A stretch of DNA of 64,000 nucleotides. It comes from a virus. The stretch lies in IMG/VR virus record IMGVR_UViG_3300035180_001820, positions 3,268 to 67,267 of that record. The stretch is one strand, 5' to 3'. How positions within the stretch are numbered: position 1 is the stretch's first letter; each line of letters opens with the position of its first letter. Both the position numbers and the translations under genes were made by a program. Shown here piece by piece: positions 16,704 to 62,950 of the stretch. The notes beneath the pieces are model-generated. The model was given only the letters and a program-made list of their open reading frames with translations, was not told where the DNA came from and made no database searches.

Positions 16704-16815
16704 AGAGTAACCTCTTTGTTTGTTTTGTTAATTAATTGATATACAAATATAATTAAAATATATTGTAATGTCAATTGTGTTATTTAATAATTTATTTTCT
16801 AAAATATATATTAAA

Positions 16816-16904
16816 AAGCCGTAGGCTTAGTCGTTCTCCGACTTCGGTAGATGCTTCGCATCTGAGTCGCATGCGACTCTTAAGGTAGCGGATTTCTAAT
16901 CCGC
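16816..16904. repeat. Cluster of five short inverted repeats
   Basis: AAGCC-GTA-GGCTT, AGTCG-TTCTC-CGACT, AGATGC-TTC-GCATCT, GAGTCGCATGCGACTC, GCGGATT-TCT-AATCCGC. Confidence 0.85.
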
Positions 16905-17056
16905 GAATTTCTGATATAAGTTCCACAAAAACCTATAAATTTAATTATATTATACATTTAGGTTTTACCATTAAAATTAAAAATAAAGATATAAATTATA
17001 AAATTTCAGTCTATTTATTTTATATATTAATTTTTTTCTAAATAATAGGATAACCA

Positions 17057-17395
17057 ATGTCTACATTCTTTCATATTTTATTTAATTTGTGGTTAGTATC
17101 AAGATTTACATATAATCCAATTTTATATATAACGGTAATAATATTATCAGCAAGACCTGATGTTATTAGATTATTACAAAAAGATAAATCTGATTGGACA
17201 ACATATAATGAATGTCATAAAATGACGTTAAGTAATATGTTAATTCCATTCTCAAATGATCATATTCTTATGGATTATTATTGTCATCAACCAACAGGTG
17301 AATGGAAACCTTGGGTTTTACCGCTTGAAATATGTCTTTGGATAATATATATCATTTTATACATATATTGTCCGCAATATGTTAGATTAATCTAA
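17057..17395 (+). CDS. Membrane-bound metal-dependent hydrolase-like protein (YdjM-like)
   Basis: AGGA RBS; H...PD...H...HxxxD pattern (FFHI, ARPDV, ECHK, DHILMD) among hydrophobic helices; no competing minus-strand ORF. Confidence 0.6.
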   Translation: MSTFFHILFNLWLVSRFTYNPILYITVIILSARPDVIRLLQKDKSDWTTYNECHKMTLSNMLIPFSNDHILMDYYCHQPTGEWKPWVLPLEICLWIIYIILYIYCPQYVRLI

Positions 17396-17561
17396 AATAA
17401 CATAAAATAGTGACCTTTAGATGCCCACCAGATGCATCAAATTATCAGACCATTGAAATATACAGTCTGTTTATTTGGCTCTTCTAGTAAGCATTATATG
17501 AATTTTCATAGTTTTATAATAAAAATGCCGAGATTAGATAATACCAATCTCGGCACTAATT

Positions 17562-25884: not shown

Positions 25885-26376
25885 TTAATGTTTACTTAAT
25901 CTAATGTGAGGAATTTTATTGAATATTCCACCGTGCTCCATAGTTCCTGTGTAGGAATTATCATCACCATATTCTACAATAAAAAACTCACAATCTTTAT
26001 TTTCATTAACAAATTCAGTTGCAACTTGTGTTGCATAAATATTAGATGCCTTTTCGTATGCATCCCAATCAATTTTATCAGTACCTTTTATTTCATATTG
26101 ATGATAATCAGGAGCTCCTGTTAACCAACCGTTAGTAAGCTCTTTTGAAATTTCATCAATAGATGCCGATTTCTGTTTTTCAATATCCATAAATATTGTT
26201 TCGGCAAAGCCTATTGTTTGATATTCTTCACCAGTATCTGGCCATGAATATTTCTTTATGGTATTACTATCAAATAATATTGATTTAATTTCTTGTGGTG
26301 ATTTTGGTTTTCTTTTAAATGCTATAATAAAACTTGATGTTGAACTATTGCTTACAAAACCTTGACGTACTTTCAT
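25885..26376 (-). CDS. GFVSNSS-motif protein, paralog 1
   Basis: MKVRQGFVSNSSTSSFIIAF; remainder not obviously similar to paralogs 2 and 3. Confidence 0.85.
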   Translation of the reverse strand: MKVRQGFVSNSSTSSFIIAFKRKPKSPQEIKSILFDSNTIKKYSWPDTGEEYQTIGFAETIFMDIEKQKSASIDEISKELTNGWLTGAPDYHQYEIKGTDKIDWDAYEKASNIYATQVATEFVNENKDCEFFIVEYGDDNSYTGTMEHGGIFNKIPHIRLSKH

Positions 26377-27023
26377 ATTACATCCATTTCATTGTTTACT
26401 TCTTTTAATACGGCATCTTGACCATATTTATTTTTTAATCTTTCAAACCAATCTGCCGTTTTTGCTTTAACCATCCAAACTCGTTTATCAACTCGTTTTG
26501 TTTCATGTAGTCCTTTACAGATTACACCCTCAACCAATCCAAATTTATTATCATGAACATCCTTTACAAAGGACTTATTTAGATTTCCTTCATATACAAC
26601 TCTTGGTATACCTATATTAGAAAACTTTTTAATAAACTTACGAGGCTCTACCCATCCTCTTTGATGCTGCCAAATATCAAACATTGTTATATCTTTAACA
26701 TCATTAGGATCATGTAAACCAAATGCAGAGTTCGGTCCATAAAATTCTGAAAATACTATAAAGTTTTTAATATTTCTATAATCTTTATCAGTCTTAAATA
26801 TTTCAGTTAATGGTTCTGCATATTTTTTCATGAACAAAATTATAGCTTCACCAAATACATCGGCCTTTTCATTTATAATTTGATTACGAGTTCCAAATTT
26901 ATAAAATCCTAATTTGTATGACCATTCGCATCTAATATTTGAACCGTCCATTTTATCAAATGCAACTATTGGTGCACCAATAGTTCCGTGCTTCCAATAT
27001 TCTATGTGATGATATTCTTTCAT
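26373..27023 (-). CDS. RNA ligase-like nucleotidyltransferase (Rnl2-type adenylation domain only)
   Basis: Motifs I (DKMDGSN), III (FSEFYG), IIIa (FDI), IV (EGVICK), V (VKAK). Confidence 0.78.
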   Translation of the reverse strand: MKEYHHIEYWKHGTIGAPIVAFDKMDGSNIRCEWSYKLGFYKFGTRNQIINEKADVFGEAIILFMKKYAEPLTEIFKTDKDYRNIKNFIVFSEFYGPNSAFGLHDPNDVKDITMFDIWQHQRGWVEPRKFIKKFSNIGIPRVVYEGNLNKSFVKDVHDNKFGLVEGVICKGLHETKRVDKRVWMVKAKTADWFERLKNKYGQDAVLKEVNNEMDVI

Positions 27024-29192: not shown

Positions 29193-30116
29193 TTATACTA
29201 TCCACTCTTGACCTTGTTTAACCATACCTGCGAACCCATCATCTTTTACCATTTTGAACCAATCACAAGGTTGTCCATAAAAATCAAATCCTTCGGTAAC
29301 ATAATCTTGATAGTGATCTAAAAACATTTTTTCTTTAATATCATCACTCAATCTTATTGCATTTACATTTTCATAACCTTTAAGTTCACCATAATTTGCA
29401 TGAACTTTAGATGAAAAATTCATTATTTTTTTAACGGTATCAACACCATCACATTCACAATCTTGGAAGATGATATCTGATTCCTTATAAAAAATTTCAG
29501 ATTGGCGAGGTGAACAATGTTGACTATCTGTAACAAAATATACTGTCTTATGACCTTCTTTTTTAAAGAGTAAACCAAATGTAGGACTTGTTATACTACC
29601 TGTCATAATATGAATTTGTTGAATCAAAGATACGGTCCAACCTTGCCAAATAAAGTTTTGATTTTCTTTAATTGGATATAATGTAAAAAATGATTTTAAT
29701 GTTGCAGGTTGTCCTTCAATTGATTCTAATCCACCTCTCCAACTCTTCTTCCATAAATCTTTAAGTAACTTTCTGTTACAAATAAGATTAGGTACATAAT
29801 CGGAGTTTGTTCTTATGATAGGTGTTTCTTCAATTGGCATTTCACTTCTCATTGCAACTTCAGGTTTATTATACCAATCATATCTCTTAAATGCAACAAA
29901 CTCAATTGATGCATGATCCGCATGTGCGTGACTAATATAAATATCATCAATTGACTTGATAGGAATATTATATTTATGAAGCATTAGAGGTAGTGCCCAG
30001 CCAGTATCTATTAATAGGTTTCGTGTTTCACCTTCATGCTCTTCGGTTAATAAAAAACTATTATTACCATTTAATATTGAGAATGCATTGCCATATCCAA
30101 TTGATTTAATTTTCAT
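29193..30116 (-). CDS. MBL-fold hydrolase, Apyc1-like (anti-Pycsar cyclic-nucleotide phosphodiesterase family)
   Basis: G.G.AFS, NNS, LLID.G, SID.IYISHAHADH, LW..S..GGL, IFQDC, VHA...EL, MFL.HY.D, QG in the order recalled for Apyc1. Confidence 0.72.
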   Translation of the reverse strand: MKIKSIGYGNAFSILNGNNSFLLTEEHEGETRNLLIDTGWALPLMLHKYNIPIKSIDDIYISHAHADHASIEFVAFKRYDWYNKPEVAMRSEMPIEETPIIRTNSDYVPNLICNRKLLKDLWKKSWRGGLESIEGQPATLKSFFTLYPIKENQNFIWQGWTVSLIQQIHIMTGSITSPTFGLLFKKEGHKTVYFVTDSQHCSPRQSEIFYKESDIIFQDCECDGVDTVKKIMNFSSKVHANYGELKGYENVNAIRLSDDIKEKMFLDHYQDYVTEGFDFYGQPCDWFKMVKDDGFAGMVKQGQEWIV

Positions 30117-33685: not shown

Positions 33686-34387
33686 CTATAATTCCAAAAT
33701 ATGAAAACGAACATCACCATCTTTCATCATACAATCGGTATTAATTAATATTGAATCACCAACAAGTGCAGTTGTTATTTGAGGGCGGTGAGAATGTCCT
33801 ACAATTTGATGTAATTTTCCAAATGGATTATTAACAAGCTCTCTCCAATCAGCCCACAATGGGCCTCCATGAGCATGCCAACCGCCACGATATTTACTAC
33901 AATGTGTTAATGATCCATTTATTTGACGATATAATGTATTTAGAAATTCATCAATACCCCAATCATCATTATATAATCTAGCTAATTGTGAATCCCAAAA
34001 ACCTTGGGTGATACCTGCATGAGTCCATAAGATATTTCCATGTTGATATGCTAATGTAAATTTATATTCATTCTCATCATATAATTGTTTTATTTGCCAT
34101 TGACATTCCGTTTTGAATCCACTACACCAAAGTGCATTTTGATTTTGGACTCTACCTAACATAAAATATTGATAATCATGATTACCAACTAATAGTTTTA
34201 TCTTATCTGGAAATTTATCTTTCCATCTAACAATTTCTACTAAATTCAAATAACATTCACTTGGTGTATGTGTAAATGAATCTAAATAATCACCAATAAA
34301 TATAATAGTATCATATTCATGTTCATGCCCAATTACATCTTTCCATGAATCACGACCATGAACATCTCCAATAGTTAATATTCTCAT
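33686..34387 (-). CDS. Calcineurin-like metallophosphoesterase
   Basis: IGDVHG, IGDYLD, VGNHD, THAG, VGHS. Confidence 0.92.
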   Translation of the reverse strand: MRILTIGDVHGRDSWKDVIGHEHEYDTIIFIGDYLDSFTHTPSECYLNLVEIVRWKDKFPDKIKLLVGNHDYQYFMLGRVQNQNALWCSGFKTECQWQIKQLYDENEYKFTLAYQHGNILWTHAGITQGFWDSQLARLYNDDWGIDEFLNTLYRQINGSLTHCSKYRGGWHAHGGPLWADWRELVNNPFGKLHQIVGHSHRPQITTALVGDSILINTDCMMKDGDVRFHILEL

Positions 34388-37409: not shown

Positions 37410-38520
37410 TTATTCTTCATCATTATCTCCACATATATTCCAATCATAATCAATTACATTTATAGTAGCTTCATGTGTAAAATTTATTTTTGAATTTTCA
37501 TATGAAACTTTTGGAGTATTAAACATTTCAGATATTTTTATCATATGATATAACTGAATTGTAATATCTTCAGATACTATAACGTAAATTACAGTGTGAT
37601 CTCTATAGATATGTAAAAATGCGGTACCGAAAAGTTCTTTAAGTTTTTCGGTATAAATCTCAACAAATTTAGTTGATGTCATATACAACATTTCTATCAA
37701 TATCAAGTACTGTGACTATGACATTGGTTCCATAAATAGTACTATCACTATAATCACCTACAGTAATATTTGTACTTTTCAATAATGCAGATAGTAATGT
37801 TAAATCAATTAACTCAATATCATGAACAGGATCTAAATCAATTATACAAAAAATACCAGATGCTTGTGTTTCTATAAAACTAACATTATGAATAATATCT
37901 TTACCAAAAATATCAAATATTTTTCCAACTAATGTTGTTGTTTTATTACCATAAATCTCATTCATTATTTTGAGTCCAATAATTTATCAAAAAAATCACA
38001 ATCAATTTGCATCTCAAAATATTCATCTTGACCATCATTGAATACTATTATTCTAATACTCTTTGCATCAAAATACTTTTCGATGTTTTTTAATTGTTCT
38101 AAATATATTCCACTATCAGGTGAAATTTTTACAGTAACTGCAAATGGATGAATATCAATATCAAGGACTTGTTTATCATACCACAAGTCCTTAACATATT
38201 TTTCCATTTCAATAAAAATAGGATTATCAATAACCATCTAAAATAGATCCTTTCTTTTGGAAAACATCGGTCTTTATTGTTACAAGTAAAAAATTAACAT
38301 CCATATCGGTTAATATTGAGACCGATATTTGTGATGGTTGAATCAACTCAAACATAAATGATAATTCATAAAGTTGGCTAACGGTTAATACCGTGTTACC
38401 TTGAAATAAAATTTCAGTTACATTTTCTTCAATTTCATCAACCTTTATAGCTACATATGATAATGCAAATGATCTTTGTAACATCCTATCGGCTTTTCTT
38501 AATTTTTTAGCATCTAACAT
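37410..38520 (-). CDS. Tandem block of four ~90-98 aa diverged paralogs (37410..37706, 37669..37965, 37965..38237, 38227..38520)
   Basis: Similar length and shared pattern I.L..L..(I/L)S..F....I.(I/V). Confidence 0.6.
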
Positions 38521-39644
38521 TATTTACTCGAATTTTTTAATAGAAATTTATTTGATACTGCTTTAAATGAAAACCTAGTACCTTTATTATAAACATTAAA
38601 TACTAAACCTTCTCGGTCAACTTGACTGTTTAACATACTTTTACCATCAGCCATTGCAATGAAATATTGAACTGCATTATCACGACTAGTAGGTGAAAAA
38701 TAAATAAGCCCATTTGCCACAATCCTAACAAAAGGAACGGTATGTATTGAATCGAATTTTTTAGATTCGTCGGTTTGTTTATAGTAACCTGTAATATTAC
38801 TTATGAAAGATAAATCCATATCATAAGGTTGTTTATCGTAAACGGTCCCATCAGTAATTAACATTATTCTAAAAACAAAAAACTGATGCTCTGTTAATTT
38901 ATAATGATTATCTTGAATGTTTGGACCTACGATTTCACCTTGAAACACAACCGCAATTGTACCTAAACTTTTTGCTTGTTCTGATTCCATAAAACATTTG
39001 AAAACATTTTCTATGTCATATTTTCTAGCAATTTCCCAATGCTTATTACCTTCAGTATCTTTCAATTGAAGATTCCTTGAACAAACACCAAATCCTTCAT
39101 CTTTATGATAAAAGAAAGTTGCAGATGTACCATCAAGCTTTTCAGTAATAAGAATTAATGCTTCACTTAAACCTGAGCATGCTCTATCAATCTTTATAGC
39201 AATTGCTGGAATATTTTGAACTCTCTCTTCATCGGTCTTTGGAATCCATGAAGGAAAATTACCTTTAGCCATTCCTTGAAGACATGCTGGAATTTTCGGT
39301 TCATATTTAAGAATGTCATACCATTCTGTCATATCTGAACCTTCAACAAATTCACATGCATCATTCTTAGGTGCAGGTATAATCAAACCTTGACTAATTT
39401 GTCCCCTAAGTTTAATGGTCTTAAGACGATACCTTTCACTAGTTTCATCTTTGAATAGAAACTCAAATTCAGGACGCCTTGGTAATAGACTATCAATTTC
39501 AAAATATACAATCAGCTCCCCTACTGAATGTAATCCCTTTTTAACAACAACGGCCCATCCTCCTACCATAGCAACTTCAATTGCATCTGCGTTCTCTATT
39601 GGTAGAATCTCTGTAATTTTTTTAATACTTGCTAATTGTCTCAT
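38520..39644 (-). CDS. RNA ligase, DRB0094/Rnl5 family
   Basis: N-terminal RQLASI..I..I.PIENADAIE, LRGQISQGL, FPSWIPKTDEERVQN, TEKLDGTS, QGEIVGP.IQ.N, REGLV, SFKAVSNKFLL. Confidence 0.92.
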   Translation of the reverse strand: MRQLASIKKITEILPIENADAIEVAMVGGWAVVVKKGLHSVGELIVYFEIDSLLPRRPEFEFLFKDETSERYRLKTIKLRGQISQGLIIPAPKNDACEFVEGSDMTEWYDILKYEPKIPACLQGMAKGNFPSWIPKTDEERVQNIPAIAIKIDRACSGLSEALILITEKLDGTSATFFYHKDEGFGVCSRNLQLKDTEGNKHWEIARKYDIENVFKCFMESEQAKSLGTIAVVFQGEIVGPNIQDNHYKLTEHQFFVFRIMLITDGTVYDKQPYDMDLSFISNITGYYKQTDESKKFDSIHTVPFVRIVANGLIYFSPTSRDNAVQYFIAMADGKSMLNSQVDREGLVFNVYNKGTRFSFKAVSNKFLLKNSSK

Positions 39645-44611: not shown

Positions 44612-47600
44612 TTTTTAGATTCCTTAATTAAAATTGATATACAAATATAACTATAATTTCTTAGACTGTCAATGGAGTTTGAAACTAAATCTCAATAACC
44701 ATCATAATAATGTCTATTATAATAATCGATGATAGGTTTTAGATTTTTGACCATTTTCTTTAATTCAAGTTCTGTAAAAGTGGCATTTATTATCCATAAA
44801 TGTTCTTTATTTTCGGTGAGTATAATCTCGGCATTTTCAACTTCTAATGCATCTAAGATCTTATTTTTTTGACGTTGGTTTAACACATACCTTAAACCGT
44901 CATTTTTTGTTAAAGAAACTAATTTGTATTTTGTTACTTCACCTTCATGTTCAGGTGTAAAATAGGTAATCAGATTATCAGGTAAAACACTAGTTAATGC
45001 AACAATTCCTTCATTTGCAATTGACTCTATTTTATTCAGTTTATTTATTTTCATATTATCCAATCCATTAAAAATTTTGATATACAAATATAACCATAAT
45101 CTAGCTAAATGTCAATAGAGTTCAAATGGCTTATTTTAAGTGATTTTAAGTAGTCTTAAAATATGTAAAATTAAGATAGCAAATTTATGGTTATTATCTG
45201 ATTTATCAATAAGTAACATTCTATGTCTTAACATTTTTAACATTGATAATTTTGTCATTACAAAATACTTACCATTACAAAATTTAAAAGATGTTGATGT
45301 TACACAACTATGTTCATTACTTTGTAATAATAATTCCGTTACGACTGAATTTGTACATAATAATGGAAGTCCCTTAAATCCAGTATCATATACATATTCA
45401 CAATTTGAACATAATAAGTTACACATTATAATCTTACCAAATTATATAATGATACATTTTTTATAATTATTTCCGCGGTGTATTTTGAACATAACCTATA
45501 AGTATCATATGATTCATTATATGATAATTTGTTTACAAATACTTCTTGTGTTTCATAAAGGTTAGCTAGCTTTGTTAATTTGGAATATTCAATTGTATTA
45601 AAATTCAAACCAACAACGGTAAAGATATCATAATTACCATCACCTCTTATAAAAAGTTTAATATCTTCGGCTGAATATAATTCGGATCTTTTTTCATTAC
45701 CTGATGTTTGTAAGATGTGATTTATTTTAAGAACCGTCATTAATTTTGTAAATTTAGTTTCTCTTAAATCACAATTTGGTAATAGCTCTACTGGGTTAGT
45801 ACTATTCATTATCTTTTACTTACTTTTAATGTATCATTAATAACAGGTTTAGGACCAACTGGTTCGTAAATATAATAACCGCCAATAATAACAGGAACTA
45901 TAATCGTTTCAGAAAAAACGATTGCACAAACAAGCCCAGGTGTTGAAATTTTATATTTCACATCCGATTGTTTTTCTTCATCTGCATTAAATAAACCATA
46001 ATTGTTAACTACCCGACCGTTTATAATTTTCTCAGGCTGTTTATCAACATAAACAAACATTAATATTGCTAATATTAAAAAACCTACAACATATCTCTTT
46101 AACTTCATTATTTACTCATTTCTTTTATTATTTGACAAAATAAACCAATAGTGAATATCCTAATTACATATCCAACTATTTTATAAAATTGTTTTTTATT
46201 CATGATAAAAACCATGCTATGATTCCACCGATAATTAATCCGATAAATGTTGCATGCGTCATCCTATCGGTTTTTAACATATACCAAAAGTGACTATTCA
46301 TTTAACCAATCTCTCATATAAAATGTTTTTATATCCAAACTAATATATTCAATACCTCTTGAATGATAATGCATTATTTCGACAGATGTTCCATTTAATT
46401 TTTTAGTAAGATCCAATGCGGCTTGAACTGCAATGATATCATATACTGGAATATGAATATCAATATGATCTTTAGCAGGAATGACATCTAAAATTTTACA
46501 TTCCAAAATCCCTTGAGCATCTTTAATTACAGCTTCAATTCTTTTCATAATATTAACCTTTACTTCTTAAACAATAAAAAGATCCGATGATACAAATTAA
46601 CATCCAACCTATAATAAAAAATTTCATTTCATTTGGTATCATTGAAGATATCTCCAATAAAATTGTTCTCTACCAACAGGTACATTACCATCAGGATAAA
46701 ATCTATCCCACCCTGGGCAAATGTCATTCAATTTCAATGAATTATATTTTGCTTTTATTTGTGGGTCTTTAGCATGCTTAAGTTGATTCAGTAACTCTTC
46801 TCGAGTATAAATTTCAACTATATGCACATCACCAATGAAACTATATTTAATTAAATTTTCATCAATTATTTCATAGTCACCAGTTTCATCCAAATAAAGT
46901 AAGTGGATAACAGCTGCCATTTTTTTATTCATTTTATTTGCAATACAGTTCATTCATATGTTCCGGTTTATCAATTAAAACACCGTAGCCAATTATAGGC
47001 CACCAAGGACATCCTGATTTTTTAAGATTAACTTTATACCAATTTTTTTGATGTGGTGAATGCTTTTGGTAAATAAGTAAAGTATCATCATCGATATTAA
47101 CTCCGACAATATACCCTTCCAGATAACCGCTCTCAACCGCAAATGTTACATTAGGTGTAAAATAAACAGGAATATCTTTACCAAGTAATGGAACATAGTC
47201 CATAATATCTTTAGGTTCCATTATCCCAACTTCACAATGGTTTTTTCTTCAATCTTTTTAGCGATAGAATCAACTCTTTCATCAAAGATGATGCCGATAG
47301 CCTGTCTAATTTTTGATTTAGTAATTTGGCAAGTTGCATCCATATGACCATCAGGCCATCTGTAAAAATTGACAACTTTAAATTCGATATCTTCAGTTTT
47401 ATCTAAAAAACTATCAAACATACCTACCATTTTTTCGGCTTCTACGTTTGGGTCAATTTTCTTTTTCTTAACTAACATGTGAATTATTTCCTTATTAAAT
47501 CTACAATACAAATTTAACTAAAATCGTTTAGACTGTCAATAGAGTTTACAATTAAAAATCAGAAGTATCTGAATTTTCATCATATTCATATTCATTTCCA

Positions 47601-58300: not shown

Positions 58301-59684
58301 ATACCATTTTCATATGTACTTAACCATCCTCTAACTTTTTCAATTGTTAACTTATCATCAGATATAAAATAACTAGATAATTTCTTATCCATTCTTTTTT
58401 CCAGTCTTTACATATTTTACAAAATATACCGAAGGATTAACATTATCCAAAAACGATACCCAATTACCATCAAGATCATTATGAAAATCTCTCCGCAACA
58501 ACTCACCATCAGGAGTCAAAAGCCAATCATCGGCTGTAGTAACATCCGTTACTTTTCCATCATAAGGTGATATTTTATAAACTTTAAATTTCAACATAAT
58601 TAATAATTTCTTAAAATTTTAACAAACTTGTATGACCTGAATAACTAAACGTTTCTGGAAACTTAATTTTTGGTTCAGGTCCAAAAAGAGTTTTTGGATA
58701 AACATAAACCGCAATTCTCTCTCCAATAAACCAAGGAACATCAATTGAATATTTTCTCTTAATTGTTTTGAACAATTTAACTCTATCGGAATGTCTGCCT
58801 TTTAGCACAACTTTTGCATTCTTTCCATTAAGTCTTTTGAACTCAGAAATGAATCTTCGACCTTCTGCATTATTTTCAACTATTGCAGTAGATGCAACAT
58901 TTTTAGCTGTAATATTAACAAACATTTTTTATTCCTTAATTAAAATTGATATACAAATATAACTATAATTTCTTAGACTGTCAATGGAGTTTGAGATTAA
59001 TCTTTCTCAATTTTACCACATAAAATACACCGATATGTATCTTTTTTACAACCATTATCTGTCCAAATATGACTGCATATTTTAATAGGTTTATTCGTCA
59101 TATCCCAAACACCATTAAAACTAATAGCAAATCTGCCAATGGTACCTTTTACCGAACTTTTATCCGAAGTAATCATTTCTAGTTGTTTTGCCGTTAATTT
59201 CATTTTTGTTATCCGTAATTAATAAATTTGATATACAAATATATCTATAAAAACATGGATTGTCAATGGAGTTTAGAAATTAATTTCTACTATCTTATTT
59301 TAATGTATTTTAAGACTTCAAAGTTACTAGCATAAAACGATGTATTTTAAGCTATTACTTATATCGTCTTTAAATGATGTTAAATAGCTTCCGAATAGAT
59401 AACCACAGAACACACATAATAACACTTACTAGACCCTTCTAACAAGACGATTACCGAGGCCTATAAATGCTTATAAATAATTAAACCATATAAACATTAA
59501 GTATACTAGTTTGACTCCCACTAGACTCATCTAACAAGCCGCCACATACTTGCTAGTGGAAAAAATTACAGTCCGGAGTATTTTACTAGTTTGTCAATAA
59601 TTGAATATATGACCATATAGAATTATCATAGTTTATTTTTTATACTCCCAATTTGATTTAAAGTCATATTGATTTATTTTTATA

Positions 59685-59811
59685 CTTAAAGATGCTTCTA
59701 TAATGTCCGGTAGAAATGCGGACTAATCCAATCTAAGTTATTTTATTTTTTTATATTTCTTAAAGATGCTTCTATAGAAGAAAAATAGTGTCCGGTAGAA
59801 ATGCGGACTAA
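59685..59811. repeat. Two-copy direct repeat containing a hairpin
   Basis: CTTAAAGATGCTTCTATA...TGTCCGGTAGAAATGCGGACTAA at 59685-59726 and 59759-59811. Confidence 0.9.
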
Positions 59812-59899
59812 AGTAAGCCATTCTCACATTACACACTTCCTAACCCCAAGTAACTAGGCATAACCTTAGCATCTATTAATGTGTACACTTATTTCTTAT

Positions 59900-61870
59900 G
59901 GGACTGAGATTATGGTAGGTAGTAACTACATACTACAAAGGACCACCAACAAATGTCAGCAGTCCTTTGAGCTAGCTAGCTATACAGCAAAAGCATCTAA
60001 TACTAAATGATCAGTAAAGTATGTCGATGCTTCCACTTTTGACGCGATTTTGAATAGACCATCGCTTACGGTCTCCTTTCCAACAAGTATGGATTGCTCC
60101 TCCTACTATCAGTATACTTGATAGTTAGTAGAGCTTCTTAACGTATAGCATCCTACGACATCCTATATTTAAAGCCTAGTATATGCAATTAAGGCACGCA
60201 GACAGTATACTTATTCAAGGTATACTAAATCGGCTACTGTTTAACGGCGGCAGTTTGCCGAGTACTTTTCTGAGTTAACTGTACATTAGTATTAATCTAA
60301 TCTGTCACGTTATAGATATCGTCAGCACAATATACCATATGCAGGTGGTTGTTACTCAATTTAGTAACCAGCAGCTACTGTAACGTCGATAGCGGCACGT
60401 GATACTCACTTTAGTATCCATCGGTATTTTGTAATGACAAAATTGACTAAAAACATCCTATACCTGTAGTCGATAGAAGAACTATAACTATATATCAGTT
60501 ATCAATATTATATTTACATATACTTAAATATACAAACAATCCTACATAAGATTATGGATGTAGTGCCATAGCCATGATTATTGAGTATAGACGACTCAAC
60601 ATAAGTTTTCGCGCTATGCCACGTACAAAGTGTTTATAGACTCTAAGTAAAAGTCTCCTAACCAGTTAATTATAATCCGTCCATGATCTGCACATGGCCT
60701 TCTGAGTTTCTGCTCAGCGGTTCTACTCCTAAACCTACGTGGTAATCACTTAATTAGTGTTTGATCTAAATATAATTTATATGTGGTACCACCCCACAAT
60801 TATGCACCGCTAAATGCAAACGTATATTTACTATAAATTGATATTAAGAATTACTTTAGATACAATTGGTGCATTTAACATTCGAGCCATTCATAACAAT
60901 GGAGCAACAAATAACGAGTACTTGTATATCTATCTAAAGATTTTGAGGTGATCAGCTGTATTCCTTGCGGCAGCTCAAAAAGAATATTTCTAACCTCTGT
61001 TATTACCGAGGTACCCGTCGGTTATTATATTCAATTGTGATTGAAGTGGGAATTGAACCCACAGTTATCATGCACCAAAGTAAATTTGTTTGTGAGACGT
61101 GCAAGCTAAGGTCAATTACGATTTAAGGTTGTAATCTTCTAGACTCAATCAACTATCATTGGTTATTTTGACATGCAATGATAAGGCATGTGTTCCTAGC
61201 AAGACTTACTAGTGAGTAAAAGTGTTTATAATGGTCAACTTTCAATCGACCTTTGTACTATATCTTTTATATTCGATATAGTATCTCATTCTCTAATATA
61301 ATATAAATTTAATCATTAATAATATTTTACCTACGCTACGTCATTTTGATTCTCCTATCTTACTATATATTTCTTATTTCTAGATTTAATAAATAATCAG
61401 TAATACCAATGTTTATATCTTTACTGCATCTATACGTGATGGATTCAATTTATAAATCATTAATAACCGAATTGAATTTTTATAAAATAGTGGCAGATCA
61501 TTTATCTGTTGCTCGAGGCAGAAATGTTTTAGACTGCCTTAATTAATAGAACCCTTAAATCCATTTCCAGACCGCAGTCCTATAGTCAGTAGGAATTTCT
61601 ATTAAAATTATATCCGTATATGTTATGGCCAAACGGACTGGATTAATAATATTGTATATATGATAGACCAACAATATCTCCAAAAAATAGGTAACATATA
61701 TTTACTGATTGCTATTTCGTCTAAGCATATACACCATGTTACGGGCTTTACCCTTAGACAATATAGTCATTATTACCAAAAAAGCAAACTTAATCAATTT
61801 CCGACTTTCACGGACATATCTGCTGCGCAGTGCATTGTCGTTTTATGCTAGATGATTAAGTTTTTCAATG
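59900..61870 (-). ncRNA. Candidate large structured non-coding RNA or ncRNA array
   Basis: No credible ORF over ~2.7 kb; more than 30 stems seen by eye, several enclosing multibranch domains; minus-strand G.U-rich stems, GNRA and T-loop-like loops. Strand and boundaries tentative. Confidence 0.6.
61035..61150 (-). ncRNA. Oversized tRNA-like element
   Basis: GATTGAG/TTCAATC acceptor-like stem, U8, T-arm GTGGG-TTCAATT-CCCAC directly adjacent, ends A-CAA; no canonical D or anticodon arm. Confidence 0.45.
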
Positions 61871-61909
61871 AACAAATTTATTATAAATATAACCTGTAAT
61901 TTGTATTTA

Positions 61910-61945
61910 ATAACCCACCCATTACTTTTTTAATAAGTGGGTTAT
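61910..61945 (-). terminator. Hairpin, probable terminator of the 61993 gene
   Basis: ATAACCCAC...GTGGGTTAT inverted repeat. Confidence 0.55.
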
Positions 61946-61992
61946 CTCCAACTTACATCCTTTGCATATTCGATTGTATCATCGAGTATGTT

Positions 61993-62514
61993 TCAGGCAG
62001 GAACAACTTCGGTTTCGGTCGGTACTACAACTGTTGCGTTCTTGTTAGCGACCTGAACCTTTGCAGCTTCAAGAGCGGCCTTAGCGGCTTCTTTCTCTGC
62101 AATTTTCTTTGCTTTCTCAGCATCCTTAATGGCTTTTGCTTCAGCGGCTTTAGTCTCTTTCTCGAGTTTCTTTGCGGCTTTGTCTGCATCTTTCTTAGCC
62201 TTAGCTTCCGCCTTTTGGACGCGTTTCAATTCTTTTGCTTCTGCCTTTGCGGCATCTTCAGCAGAAGTGTCAACCTTAGGGGTAGGAACAAACTCAGTCG
62301 CGGTAGCGTCAAGCTGTTCAACAGTTCTGCGAATCTGACCGGTTACAAGCAGGTCTTTCTTTTCGGAATAGCGATTCAGTACAACAAAGGTCTTAATAAC
62401 TTCACCGAGTTCATTCTTAACCGGTTTGATACCGGTGATTTCCCAAGGGGAATTTGCGACGGTTTTTTGTTCTGCATTTTCAAATTTAACGCGGGTTCCA
62501 ACTTCGTAGTTCAT
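61993..62514 (-). CDS. Protein with small beta domain and long K/A/E-rich helix (start moved to MNYEVG)
   Basis: Track start at 62577 lies inside promoter 62556-62584; AEAKAKKDADKAAKK-type repeats. Confidence 0.75.
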   Translation of the reverse strand: MNYEVGTRVKFENAEQKTVANSPWEITGIKPVKNELGEVIKTFVVLNRYSEKKDLLVTGQIRRTVEQLDATATEFVPTPKVDTSAEDAAKAEAKELKRVQKAEAKAKKDADKAAKKLEKETKAAEAKAIKDAEKAKKIAEKEAAKAALEAAKVQVANKNATVVVPTETEVVPA

Positions 62515-62950
62515 GTGTTTGTCTTTCTTTAGATCTTTAATAATTTTTATATTCAAATTTAACCATTTTTTATTCAACTGTCAATAGAGTTTCAAATCTT
62601 TTTTCCGATGATTTGTGGTCCGTAATTTGTAACCGTTGAATTAATTGATATACAAATTTAACCATTTTTCGGTTCAATGTCAATAGAGTTTAATCATTTT
62701 ACCAATCCATTTTTCAAAGAATAAATAAAGGTCATAAAAAGCTGTATCAAAACGAGACAGATTTGTTATTGACAGTACGTCTGATATACCAAGATAATTG
62801 GGCTGGATTGTGATATTACTATCTGGTCCATATAAAATCCCAATATCATTAATAAAGTCAATTTTAGCCTGTTCTAACAGTTCTATATCGTTCAAATTTT
62901 TCATATTCAAATATAACTATAATCTAGCCTAATGTCAATAGAGTTTGAAA

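What the first reader, a model, noticed from the sequence alone, without database searches (positions are those of the whole stretch)
59900..61891. ~2 kb ORF-free, densely structured region: candidate giant ncRNA or ncRNA array
Seen: in a genome with overlapping genes, 59204-61992 has no credible ORF yet is more GC-rich than normal spacers and is tiled with stems, e.g. CAAAGGAC/GTCCTTTG (59936-59969), AAGCATC/GATGCTT, CCACGTA/TACGTGG enclosing several hairpins (~60619-60742), CTTTAGATA/TATCTAAAG, TTTTGAG/CTCAAAA, TTAATAGAA/TTCTATTAA, GTCTAAG/CTTAGAC. AT-rich linkers (~60480-60540, ~60760-60850, ~61290-61440) split it into modules. Minus strand is favoured: 59936-59969 becomes a 15-bp stem with four G.U pairs; loops CC-GCAA-GG (60963-60970), GGTCGAT-TGAAA-GTTGACC (61233-61251) and CCG-TGAAAGT-CGG; upstream TATATTTAT and a terminator-like hairpin. 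Some stems have G.U on the plus strand, so strand is not settled. Known: phages carry large RNAs such as GOLLD and ROOL; I could not match one by eye. Inference: a new large RNA or polycistronic set of decoy/scaffold RNAs.
Basis: partly seen in the sequence, partly recalled or inferred. Interest (0 to 1): 0.9.

Follow-up and report, generated by a model that had tools for sequence, protein, structure and literature searches.

The report
Gene-free phage island with tRNA-like element
A 2.8-kb stretch of an uncultivated large phage truly encodes no protein and holds one tRNA-shaped element, so it is probably a non-coding RNA locus, but it folds no better than the phage's ordinary genes and nothing related was found to test the idea.

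Summary
The window is a fragment (CheckV estimate 33% complete) of an AT-rich, T4-like uncultivated myovirus with all genes on the minus strand. The gene-free stretch 59204-61992 is real. It has no credible ORF under four genetic codes, no period-3 signal and negative codon scores in all six frames. Its core is GC-richer (0.34-0.39) than the phage's other spacers (0.24).

"Densely structured" is not supported. The listed stems exist, but short inverted repeats and 150-nt folding z-scores match the phage's coding DNA.

Rfam gives nothing at curated cut-offs, and GOLLD and ROOL are absent. The one specific feature is a 113-nt cloverleaf-shaped element at 61038-61150 (-). It has a 7-bp acceptor stem and a perfect T arm but no canonical D or anticodon arm (19.6 bits, cut-off 29).

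A perfect 14-nt inverted repeat brackets the stretch. The whole 2.5-kb minus-strand RNA folds 49 kcal/mol better than block shuffles (z -4.9). Two coding controls gave -2.5 and -1.1.

No homologue, RNA data or population data could be obtained.

Best reading (0.42): a minus-strand non-coding transcription unit processed around the tRNA-like element. Rivals: inert spacer or relic (0.25), one giant RNA (0.12), DNA-level element (0.10). Interest is moderate.

The parts
61993..62577 (-). Upstream gene (194 aa, Lys/Glu/Ala-rich tail, no Pfam family), driven by an early promoter at 62584-62556. It ends immediately before the gene-free stretch.
61909..61946 (-). 16-bp uninterrupted hairpin with 3 G.U pairs, so specific to the minus strand. 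It follows the stop codon of the upstream gene. The tail is AAAUAC, not a U run, so it is a weak terminator or a stabiliser.
61883..61892 (-). TTATATTTAT element without a -35 box, 17 nt behind the hairpin. It is the candidate start signal for transcription into the gene-free body (inference).
   Evidence: Of the 5 other -35-less copies on the minus strand, 3 lie 5-36 nt before an ORF start and 2 lie inside genes.
61838..61851 (.). Right arm of the perfect 14-nt inverted repeat (TCGTTTTATGCTAG on plus).
59327..59340 (.). Left arm of the perfect 14-nt inverted repeat (CTAGCATAAAACGA on plus). It sits between two copies of a promoter-upstream repeat.
59830..61900 (-). Unique non-coding body: GC 0.336, no period-3 signal, no similarity to anything searched.
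61038..61150 (-). tRNA-shaped element of 113 nt. It has a 7-bp acceptor stem, U8, and a 5-bp T stem with loop UUCAAUU. Two oversized arms replace the D and anticodon arms, and no CCA is encoded.
   Evidence: (Rfam tRNA 19.6 bits, cut-off 29)
60941..60980 (-). Irregular hairpin capped by a GCAA (GNRA-type) tetraloop on the minus strand, 60 nt downstream of the tRNA-like element.
   Evidence: read from the sequence
60530..60760 (-). Module with the best-defined fold: a closed multibranch structure, z -2.84 (2 of 200 shuffles as good), centroid close to the MFE. The plus strand gives z -1.22.
59936..59969 (-). 15-bp uninterrupted hairpin with 4 G.U pairs. The surrounding 301 nt fold with z -2.48 (0 of 100 shuffles as good).
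59785..59811 (-). Repeated hairpin GUCCG-9 nt-CGGAC followed by a U-rich tail, terminator-like. A second copy at 59700-59726 lacks the tail.
59425..59556 (-). Repeated 9-bp G.U-containing hairpins (CUUGUUAGA...UCUAGU). Related motifs occur in other intergenic regions. The distal copy is followed by a U-rich tail.
59238..59266 (-). Early promoter TTGACA-17-TATATT of the downstream gene 58997-59203. It is one of about 20 near-identical promoter cassettes in the window, and none lies inside the gene-free body.

Best explanation
The stretch is a real non-coding island in the early-gene block of an uncultivated AT-rich T4-like myovirus. It is most likely a minus-strand non-coding transcription unit of about 2.1-2.5 kb. 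Transcription would enter either by read-through of the weak hairpin behind gene 61993-62577, or from the -35-less TTATATTTAT element at 61892. It would stop at the tandem terminator-like hairpins at 59811-59425, just before the next early promoter. The transcript carries one tRNA-shaped domain (61150-61038). Its intact acceptor and T-arm 'top half' is the part of a tRNA that RNase P and 3'-end enzymes recognise (established knowledge). Host enzymes would therefore cut the precursor there. That would release a roughly 113-nt tRNA-like RNA and flanking RNAs of a few hundred nucleotides, for example the 60530-60760 module. In kind, this is the phage's counterpart of a tRNA or stable-RNA island, but without any canonical tRNA. 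Shown: non-coding, GC-elevated, a tRNA-like element on the minus strand, end-bracketing repeat. Inferred: transcription, processing, any function.
For: (1) The stretch is non-coding by four independent measures.

(2) GC of the modules is 0.34-0.39, against 0.242 in the phage's 28 other spacers. A neutrally decaying spacer in a 28% GC genome should drift towards spacer composition. A foreign 2-kb piece would usually be coding and keep a period-3 signal, which is absent. Selection on an RNA or DNA function explains this best (inference).

(3) The only GC-rich T-arm motif in 64 kb, both strands, lies here on the transcribed strand. It has a contiguous 7-bp acceptor stem. Rfam tRNA gives E 1.2 after correction for 4227 families, so about 3e-4 for the tRNA model alone (my arithmetic). 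The free MFE and the centroid of the 117-nt piece are both a four-arm cloverleaf.

(4) Minus-strand bias: module 60530-60760 has z -2.84 on minus against -1.22 on plus. The whole 2541-nt RNA has z -4.9 on minus (8 block shuffles) against -2.1 on plus (6 shuffles). Two coding controls gave -2.49 and -1.08.

(5) A perfect 14-nt inverted repeat brackets the stretch and closes the global MFE. Of 300 shuffles, 18 have a repeat that long, and none of those 18 brackets both ends.

(6) Terminator-like hairpins cluster at the distal end.

(7) Precedent from passages read: GOLLD and ROOL lie near phage tRNA islands, with tRNAs sometimes in the GOLLD linker (PMC12286853). Phage K has abundant lncRNAs beside its tRNA genes (PMC9241854). 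T4 RNAC and RNAD are RNAs of unknown function (PMC9697503).
Against: Local folding is no better than the phage's coding DNA. Two of the five modules folded on the minus strand are at or near chance: 60130-60470 z +0.64 and 60940-61160 z -0.75. None of the phage's roughly 20 canonical early promoters lies inside, and promoter-like sites are at shuffle level: 21 found, 19.6 expected. The TTATATTTAT start signal is conjecture, since 2 of the 5 other copies sit inside genes. The whole-RNA excess rests on few shuffles and two controls, and much of it may be the 14-bp helix alone (my estimate). If transcription ends at 59811, the left arm of that helix is not in the RNA. The phage has another terminator-to-promoter spacer of 830 nt (16704-17533), so it tolerates non-coding DNA. 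No homologue, covariation or expression evidence exists.
Confidence: 0.42

Rival explanations
1. Inert spacer or relic. The hairpin at 61946-61909 terminates transcription. The 2.7 kb up to the next early promoter is untranscribed DNA, either a decayed tRNA or small-gene island or a foreign insertion. The tRNA-like element would then be a tRNA pseudogene.
For: No internal canonical promoter. Local fold and stem statistics equal the background. Dinucleotide odds are all near 1 and CTAG is 6.5-fold above the rest of the window, so the stretch lacks the phage's usual sequence biases. The phage has another 830-nt terminator-to-promoter spacer. The D and anticodon arms of the tRNA-like element are unrecognisable. 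Two phages carrying a homologue of the neighbouring 149-aa gene have tRNA arrays beside it: 2 of the 9 loci scanned, L009 and L012.
Against: GC of 0.34-0.39 is far above the phage's spacers at 0.242, which long neutral decay should have erased. There is no period-3 or codon trace of former genes and no fragment of any protein of the window. A tRNA profile finds no second tRNA remnant: 1 hit at 6.3 bits, against a maximum of 3.3 in 40 randomisations. In the tRNA-like element, exactly the top half is perfect while the rest is replaced, which random decay does not predict.
Confidence: 0.25
2. One giant structured RNA of a new class, about 2.1-2.5 kb. It would be closed by the 14-bp terminal helix and carry an embedded tRNA-like domain, analogous in logic to GOLLD, which can carry tRNAs in its linker.
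For: The terminal helix brackets the stretch and closes the MFE. Whole-RNA z is -4.9 on the minus strand against -1.1 and -2.5 for the controls. GC is elevated across 2 kb. There is precedent for large phage RNAs near tRNAs.
Against: Local z-scores are at background and several modules are unstructured. AT-rich linkers of 60-240 nt with GC 0.13-0.25 break the body. A length of 2-2.5 kb is well above what the passage read gives for GOLLD, 'many members exceeding 800 nucleotides'. There is no GOLLD or ROOL signal. The ROOL control rang nowhere, so that answer is weak by itself, but cmscan at E<=10 also gave nothing. No covariation data exist.
Confidence: 0.12
3. A DNA-level element, such as a replication origin, a packaging or injection-control region, or a transcriptional insulator between early operons.
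For: It is an ORF-free, unique locus with AT-rich tracts beside GC-richer blocks. It has a bracketing inverted repeat. It lies in the early region a few kb from the contig end.
Against: There are no iterons or repeated boxes in the body. The direct repeats lie mainly in the left 550 nt (4 of 6 families, and both long ones), and the three 9-mers that occur three times with a copy in the body are AT-rich. There is no switch of GC skew. The tRNA-like element is unexplained.
Confidence: 0.1
4. Hidden coding capacity: small proteins, recoded genes, or genes split by introns.
For: There is a mild period-3 bump at 59980-60460. A 19-codon ATG frame with a purine-rich site upstream lies at 60060-60001 (read).
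Against: Codon log-odds are negative in all frames. Three alternative codes give nothing. No minus-strand ORF has an ATG start. No intron family is found at E<=10.
Confidence: 0.03

Closest known systems
Phage tRNA and stable-RNA islands (T4 tRNA region with RNAC and RNAD)
   Same: A non-coding island in the early or middle part of a T4-like genome, on the same strand as the genes, containing a tRNA-shaped RNA. T4 RNAC and RNAD are likewise RNAs of unknown function (PMC9697503, passages). That they lie in the T4 tRNA cluster is recalled, not read.
   Different: No canonical tRNA is present: ARAGORN finds 0 in 64 kb and Rfam has no hit at the cut-off. The island is far larger than one tRNA-like element needs. 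No sequence similarity was tested against T4.
GOLLD and ROOL large phage RNAs
   Same: Large non-coding loci of phages associated with tRNA islands, with tRNAs sometimes inside the GOLLD linker (PMC12286853, passages).
   Different: No match to RF02032 or RF03087 (cmscan at E<=10). There is no evidence of ornate conserved structure. The length would be 2-3 times greater.
Phage K (Kayvirus) lnc001 and lnc002
   Same: [quoted passage not shown]
   Different: Those were found by RNA-seq, and no expression data exist here. blastn against 50,697 phage records gave no match.
tRNA-like structures that mimic the tRNA top half (bacterial Y-RNA-like YrlA, tmRNA tRNA-like domain)
   Same: Acceptor stem plus T arm are retained while the rest is replaced. 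PMC4201824 reports that bacterial Y RNAs mimic tRNAs (search-listing title and start of abstract only).
   Different: No Rfam match to a Y-RNA or tmRNA model at E<=10. ARAGORN finds no tmRNA. The third acceptor pair is U-A, not the G.U used by tmRNA (sequence; the G.U rule is recalled).

Membership tests
tRNA (Rfam RF00005) | 7-bp acceptor stem with the T arm directly adjoining its 3' strand | tested here: met
   GAUUGAG pairs with UUCAAUC (6 Watson-Crick pairs plus 1 G.U). The T stem is GUGGG/CCCAC with loop UUCAAUU.
tRNA (Rfam RF00005) | D arm and a 5-bp anticodon stem with a 7-nt loop | tested here: not met
   Infernal replaces 15 and 18 model positions by 33 and 41 nt. ARAGORN reads a tRNA only at 85% threshold, with a 39-nt insert and a 3-pair D stem.
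tRNA (Rfam RF00005) | Score at or above the curated cut-off (29 bits) or detection by ARAGORN with default settings | tested here: not met
   19.6 bits. ARAGORN default finds 0 genes.
GOLLD (RF02032) | Match to the conserved 3' domain model | tested here: not met
   0 matches at E<=10 in the whole record; 10 candidates were scored.
ROOL (RF03087) | Match to the covariance model | tested here: inconclusive
   0 matches, but the control genomes also gave none, so this search has no positive control. cmscan of the region at E<=10 also lists no ROOL hit.
tmRNA | tRNA-like domain plus tag reading frame, as detected by ARAGORN | tested here: not met
   No tmRNA even at 80% threshold.
Group I or group II introns, riboswitches and other Rfam families | Any covariance-model match | tested here: not met
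   0 hits at gathering score in 64 kb. At E<=10 there are only weak chance-level hits.
Protein-coding gene or pseudogene | Open frame, period-3 composition, codon bias, similarity to proteins | tested here: not met
Transposable element with terminal inverted repeats | Terminal inverted repeats | tested here: met
   Perfect 14-nt inverted repeat at 59327-59340 and 61838-61851.
Transposable element with terminal inverted repeats | Target-site duplication, transposase gene or remnant, further copies | tested here: not met
   The flanks differ (read). There is no coding remnant. Only these two arms occur in the window at up to 2 mismatches.
Large structured ncRNA (generic) | Covariation-supported structure and a detectable transcript | not testable with these tools
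   No relative shares the sequence. No RNA run holds it. Read laying gave nothing.

The most novel reading that the evidence does not exclude
The stretch encodes a new class of very large (about 2-2.5 kb) phage RNA. Its ends would pair in a 14-bp helix and it would carry a built-in tRNA-like domain. This would be a GOLLD-like design, a large RNA with a tethered tRNA mimic, in a lineage unrelated to the known GOLLD and ROOL hosts. Its target might be host tRNA-directed defence or the translation apparatus. The same phage fragment carries two RNA ligases and a metallophosphoesterase; their usual role in RNA repair is established knowledge, and the link to this locus is speculation.
Probability: 0.12. 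Interest if true: 0.8.

Novelty: new variant of a known kind. Interest (0 to 1): 0.38.

Why it matters
Large phages are known to keep non-coding RNA loci beside their tRNA genes, and what those RNAs do is still open. If this island is transcribed and processed, it would be a tRNA-island-type locus that has kept only a tRNA mimic and about 2 kb of other RNA. That points to a function other than decoding, such as a decoy for tRNA-targeting defence, a processing scaffold or a sponge. If it is inert, it shows that a compact phage genome can carry 2 kb of GC-rich non-coding DNA, which would itself need an explanation. As it stands the locus is an orphan with no comparative or expression support, so its value is as a candidate for RNA-seq.

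Tried and rejected
**Homologues: none found.**
- blastn 'distant' against 50,697 phage records and 72,556 plasmids gave no match.
- The neighbouring 194-aa gene has no relative in viral contigs.
- The 149-aa neighbour gave 20 viral and 41 metagenome loci, at most 56% identical.
- The AAA ATPase gave 1 distant locus. The baseplate wedge gave 30 loci at 34-37%. GenBank phages (Mel-JY01, Flavobacterium 'immuto', an uncultured 484-kb phage) are at 33-36%.
- blastn and nhmmer of the region against all 92 fetched loci (789 kb) gave only chance-level hits.
- Exact patterns from the tRNA-like element gave 0 hits in viral contigs and 0 in genome contigs.
- Relatives cannot be drawn for a virus record.
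- Mel-JY01 shows no comparable gap in the 45 kb inspected and has a single tRNA elsewhere.

**Expression and population data.**
- No RNA holder was listed. Four DNA runs hold 94-99% of the sampled words, and two of them may be the source.

**Closed or failed tools.**
- The first fold-scan script timed out.
- One Rfam call exceeded the size limit and was resent with fewer loci.

**Readings considered and dropped.**
- Alternative genetic codes.
- Pseudogenes of the window's own proteins.
- A decayed tRNA array with several remnants: only one remnant was found.
- A tRNA with an 850-nt intron, proposed by ARAGORN at 90% threshold. Its 5' half overlaps the gene-end hairpin and its stems are poor.
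- A 21-nt identity with gene 45136-45426. It is an isolated near-palindrome with no extended protein similarity.
Full report
**Context.** The window is bases 3268-67267 of a 67,267-base IMG/VR virus record that CheckV rates 33% complete. Every gene of at least 150 aa but one doubtful frame lies on the minus strand. GC is 28.3%. Recognisable genes are a baseplate wedge, two RNA ligases, a DNA ligase, an AAA ATPase, a metallophosphoesterase, an MBL-fold protein and a radical-SAM protein. The nearest named phages are Microcystis phage Mel-JY01, Flavobacterium phage 'immuto' and an uncultured 484-kb phage, at only 33-36% identity in the baseplate wedge. The 30 IMG/VR relatives found with that protein are at 34-37%. 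For practical purposes the phage is an orphan.

The right half of the window is a block of small genes. Each sits behind a nearly identical promoter cassette, CTCTATTGACA-17 nt-TATATTTGTATATCAA. About 20 copies occur, all on the minus strand.

- Between 59204 and 61992 the longest ORF is 63 aa, on the plus strand. Minus-strand ORFs are at most 42 aa and none starts with ATG.
- The longest stop-to-stop frame inside is 81 aa.
- Codes 4, TAG=Q and TAA=Q open nothing credible.
- It is by far the largest gap in minus-strand ORF cover of the window. The next gaps are 830 and 302 nt.
- The period-3 statistic averages 6.0, its null value, against 19.7 for coding DNA. Only a mild bump appears at 59980-60460.
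- A codon log-odds score trained on the phage's genes is negative in all six frames.
- tblastn of the window's own ORF translations (minus strand, at least 40 aa, outside the stretch) finds no gene fragment.

The composition claim also holds. The core 59830-61900 has GC 0.336. Modules of 0.34-0.39 lie at the 93rd-99th percentile of the window. The 28 other spacers average 0.242. AT-rich linkers separate the modules as described. All listed stems and loops are present.

**Is it more structured than chance?** Against shuffles, somewhat. Against this genome, no.
- Perfect 7-nt inverted repeats within 150 nt number 72, against 38 or 44 in shuffles. Six coding controls of equal length give 41-89.
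- Thirty-five 150-nt windows average z of about -0.7 on both strands (my arithmetic). The 87 coding windows average -0.27 and -0.55, sd 1.2.
- Module by module on the minus strand: 60530-60760 z -2.84 (plus strand -1.22), 59830-60130 z -2.48, 59290-59560 z -1.76, 61600-61900 z -1.25, 61140-61380 z -1.23, 60940-61160 z -0.75, 60130-60470 z +0.64.
- Long G.U-containing hairpins on the minus strand are a genome-wide trait: 20 against 6 on plus, with 2 of the 20 in this stretch.
- The whole 2541-nt minus RNA folds to -625.1 kcal/mol, against -576.1+-10.0 for 8 block shuffles (z -4.9). The plus strand gives z -2.1. Two minus-strand coding controls give -2.49 and -1.08. This is suggestive, but it rests on few shuffles, and a single 14-bp helix accounts for much of it.

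**What specific features are there?**

(a) A tRNA-shaped element at 61150-61038 (-).
- It has a 7-bp acceptor stem, U8, and a T arm GUGGG-UUCAAUU-CCCAC. Two oversized arms stand in place of the D and anticodon arms.
- Rfam tRNA scores it 19.6 bits against a cut-off of 29.
- Its free MFE and centroid are a cloverleaf.
- It is the only GC-rich T-arm motif in the window on either strand.
- It is the only hit of a tRNA profile built from 53 tRNAs of relatives.
- ARAGORN calls it only at 85% threshold, as tRNA-Thr(GGU) with a 39-nt insert.
- It fails tRNA membership. Its perfect 'top half' is what decay would not preferentially spare.

(b) A perfect 14-nt inverted repeat at 59327-59340 and 61838-61851 brackets the stretch. 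Of 300 shuffles, 18 contain one that long, and none of the 18 brackets the ends. It closes the global MFE. There is no target-site duplication and no further copy.

(c) A 16-bp G.U hairpin lies directly after the upstream gene, followed 17 nt later by a -35-less TTATATTTAT. Of the 5 other such sites, 3 lie 5-36 nt before an ORF start.

(d) Tandem terminator-like hairpins, repeated and related to those of other spacers, lie at 59811-59425, just before the next early promoter.

**What it is not.**
- Rfam gives 0 hits at curated cut-offs in 64 kb, and only chance-level hits at E<=10.
- GOLLD gives no match.
- ROOL gives no match, but that search lacked a positive control.
- ARAGORN finds no tRNA or tmRNA at default settings.
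- No similar DNA occurs in phage or plasmid collections or in the 92 fetched loci.

**Interpretation.** A 2-kb sequence that is non-coding, free of any coding trace and much GC-richer than the phage's own spacers is hard to explain as old junk, because AT-biased drift should have lowered its GC. It is also hard to explain as a random foreign fragment, because that would mostly be coding. Selection on a non-coding function fits better.

The function is most likely an RNA on the transcribed strand, because the one recognisable element is a tRNA mimic in that orientation. I therefore favour (0.42) a minus-strand non-coding transcription unit whose precursor is cut at the tRNA-like domain by RNase P and 3'-end enzymes into a few stable RNAs. 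That would make it a tRNA-island-type locus without tRNAs.

The precedents were read only as passages. They are GOLLD and ROOL near phage tRNA islands, with tRNAs sometimes in the GOLLD linker (PMC12286853). They also include phage K lncRNAs beside tRNA genes (PMC9241854) and T4 RNAC and RNAD (PMC9697503). A screen of IMG/VR reported tRNA-like candidate RNAs in viruses (PMC10690425, abstract and section 2.3). Its supplementary tables, which might list this contig, could not be opened.

The rivals are:
- An inert spacer or relic (0.25).
- One giant RNA closed by the terminal helix (0.12).
- A DNA-level element (0.10).
- Hidden coding (0.03).

**Limits.** No covariation, expression or population evidence could be obtained. 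No relative shares the sequence. No RNA run holds it. The single read-laying run was lost to a filter on a stretch outside the finding. The transcription start, processing and function are all inferences.

**Verdict.** The finding is a real and unusual non-coding island with one tRNA-like element. The claim of an exceptionally structured giant RNA is not supported by the tests that could be run, and it is not excluded either. Interest is moderate (0.38).

Noticed in passing
window, about 20 sites on the minus strand (e.g. 63460-63432, 62938-62910, 59266-59238, 58984-58956, 53650-53622, 47849-47821, 45115-45087, 44672-44644): A conserved promoter cassette of about 75 nt (CTCTATTGACA-17 nt-TATATTTGTATATCAA, with CTTAAAATA-type upstream repeats) precedes many small genes. 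This looks like a host-takeover-style early block driven by host sigma-70-type recognition.
   Followed up: partly
window 16704-17533: A second, smaller gene-free gap of 830 nt (GC 0.255). It lies between a canonical terminator (17557-17524) and the next early promoter (about 16781-16752). It shows that this phage tolerates sizeable non-coding spacers.
   Followed up: partly
L012:17558-17707: A phage contig carrying a homologue of the neighbouring 149-aa gene has a good tRNA (54.4 bits) interrupted by an 80-nt insert in the anticodon loop. That is too short for a group I intron. The same locus has a CUA-anticodon (amber-reading) tRNA and a dispersed array of about 16 tRNAs.
   Followed up: partly
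window 29193-30116 (-), 38520-39644 (-), 26373-27023 (-), 33686-34387 (-): An MBL-fold protein sits at the Pfam cut-off for anti-Pycsar Apyc1 (50.3 bits against 50). The fragment also carries two RNA ligases and a metallophosphoesterase, a possible RNA-repair and counter-defence gene set.
   Followed up: no
window, whole: Uninterrupted hairpins of at least 12 bp (G.U allowed) number 20 on the minus strand against 6 on the plus strand. Many lie inside coding regions. This reflects either strong G+U richness of the transcripts or widespread mRNA hairpins.
   Followed up: no
window 60424-60444 (+) and 45268-45248 (-): A perfect 21-nt identity between the gene-free stretch and the coding strand of gene 45136-45426, in opposite orientation. 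The sequence is a near-palindrome, and no extended similarity surrounds it.
   Followed up: yes
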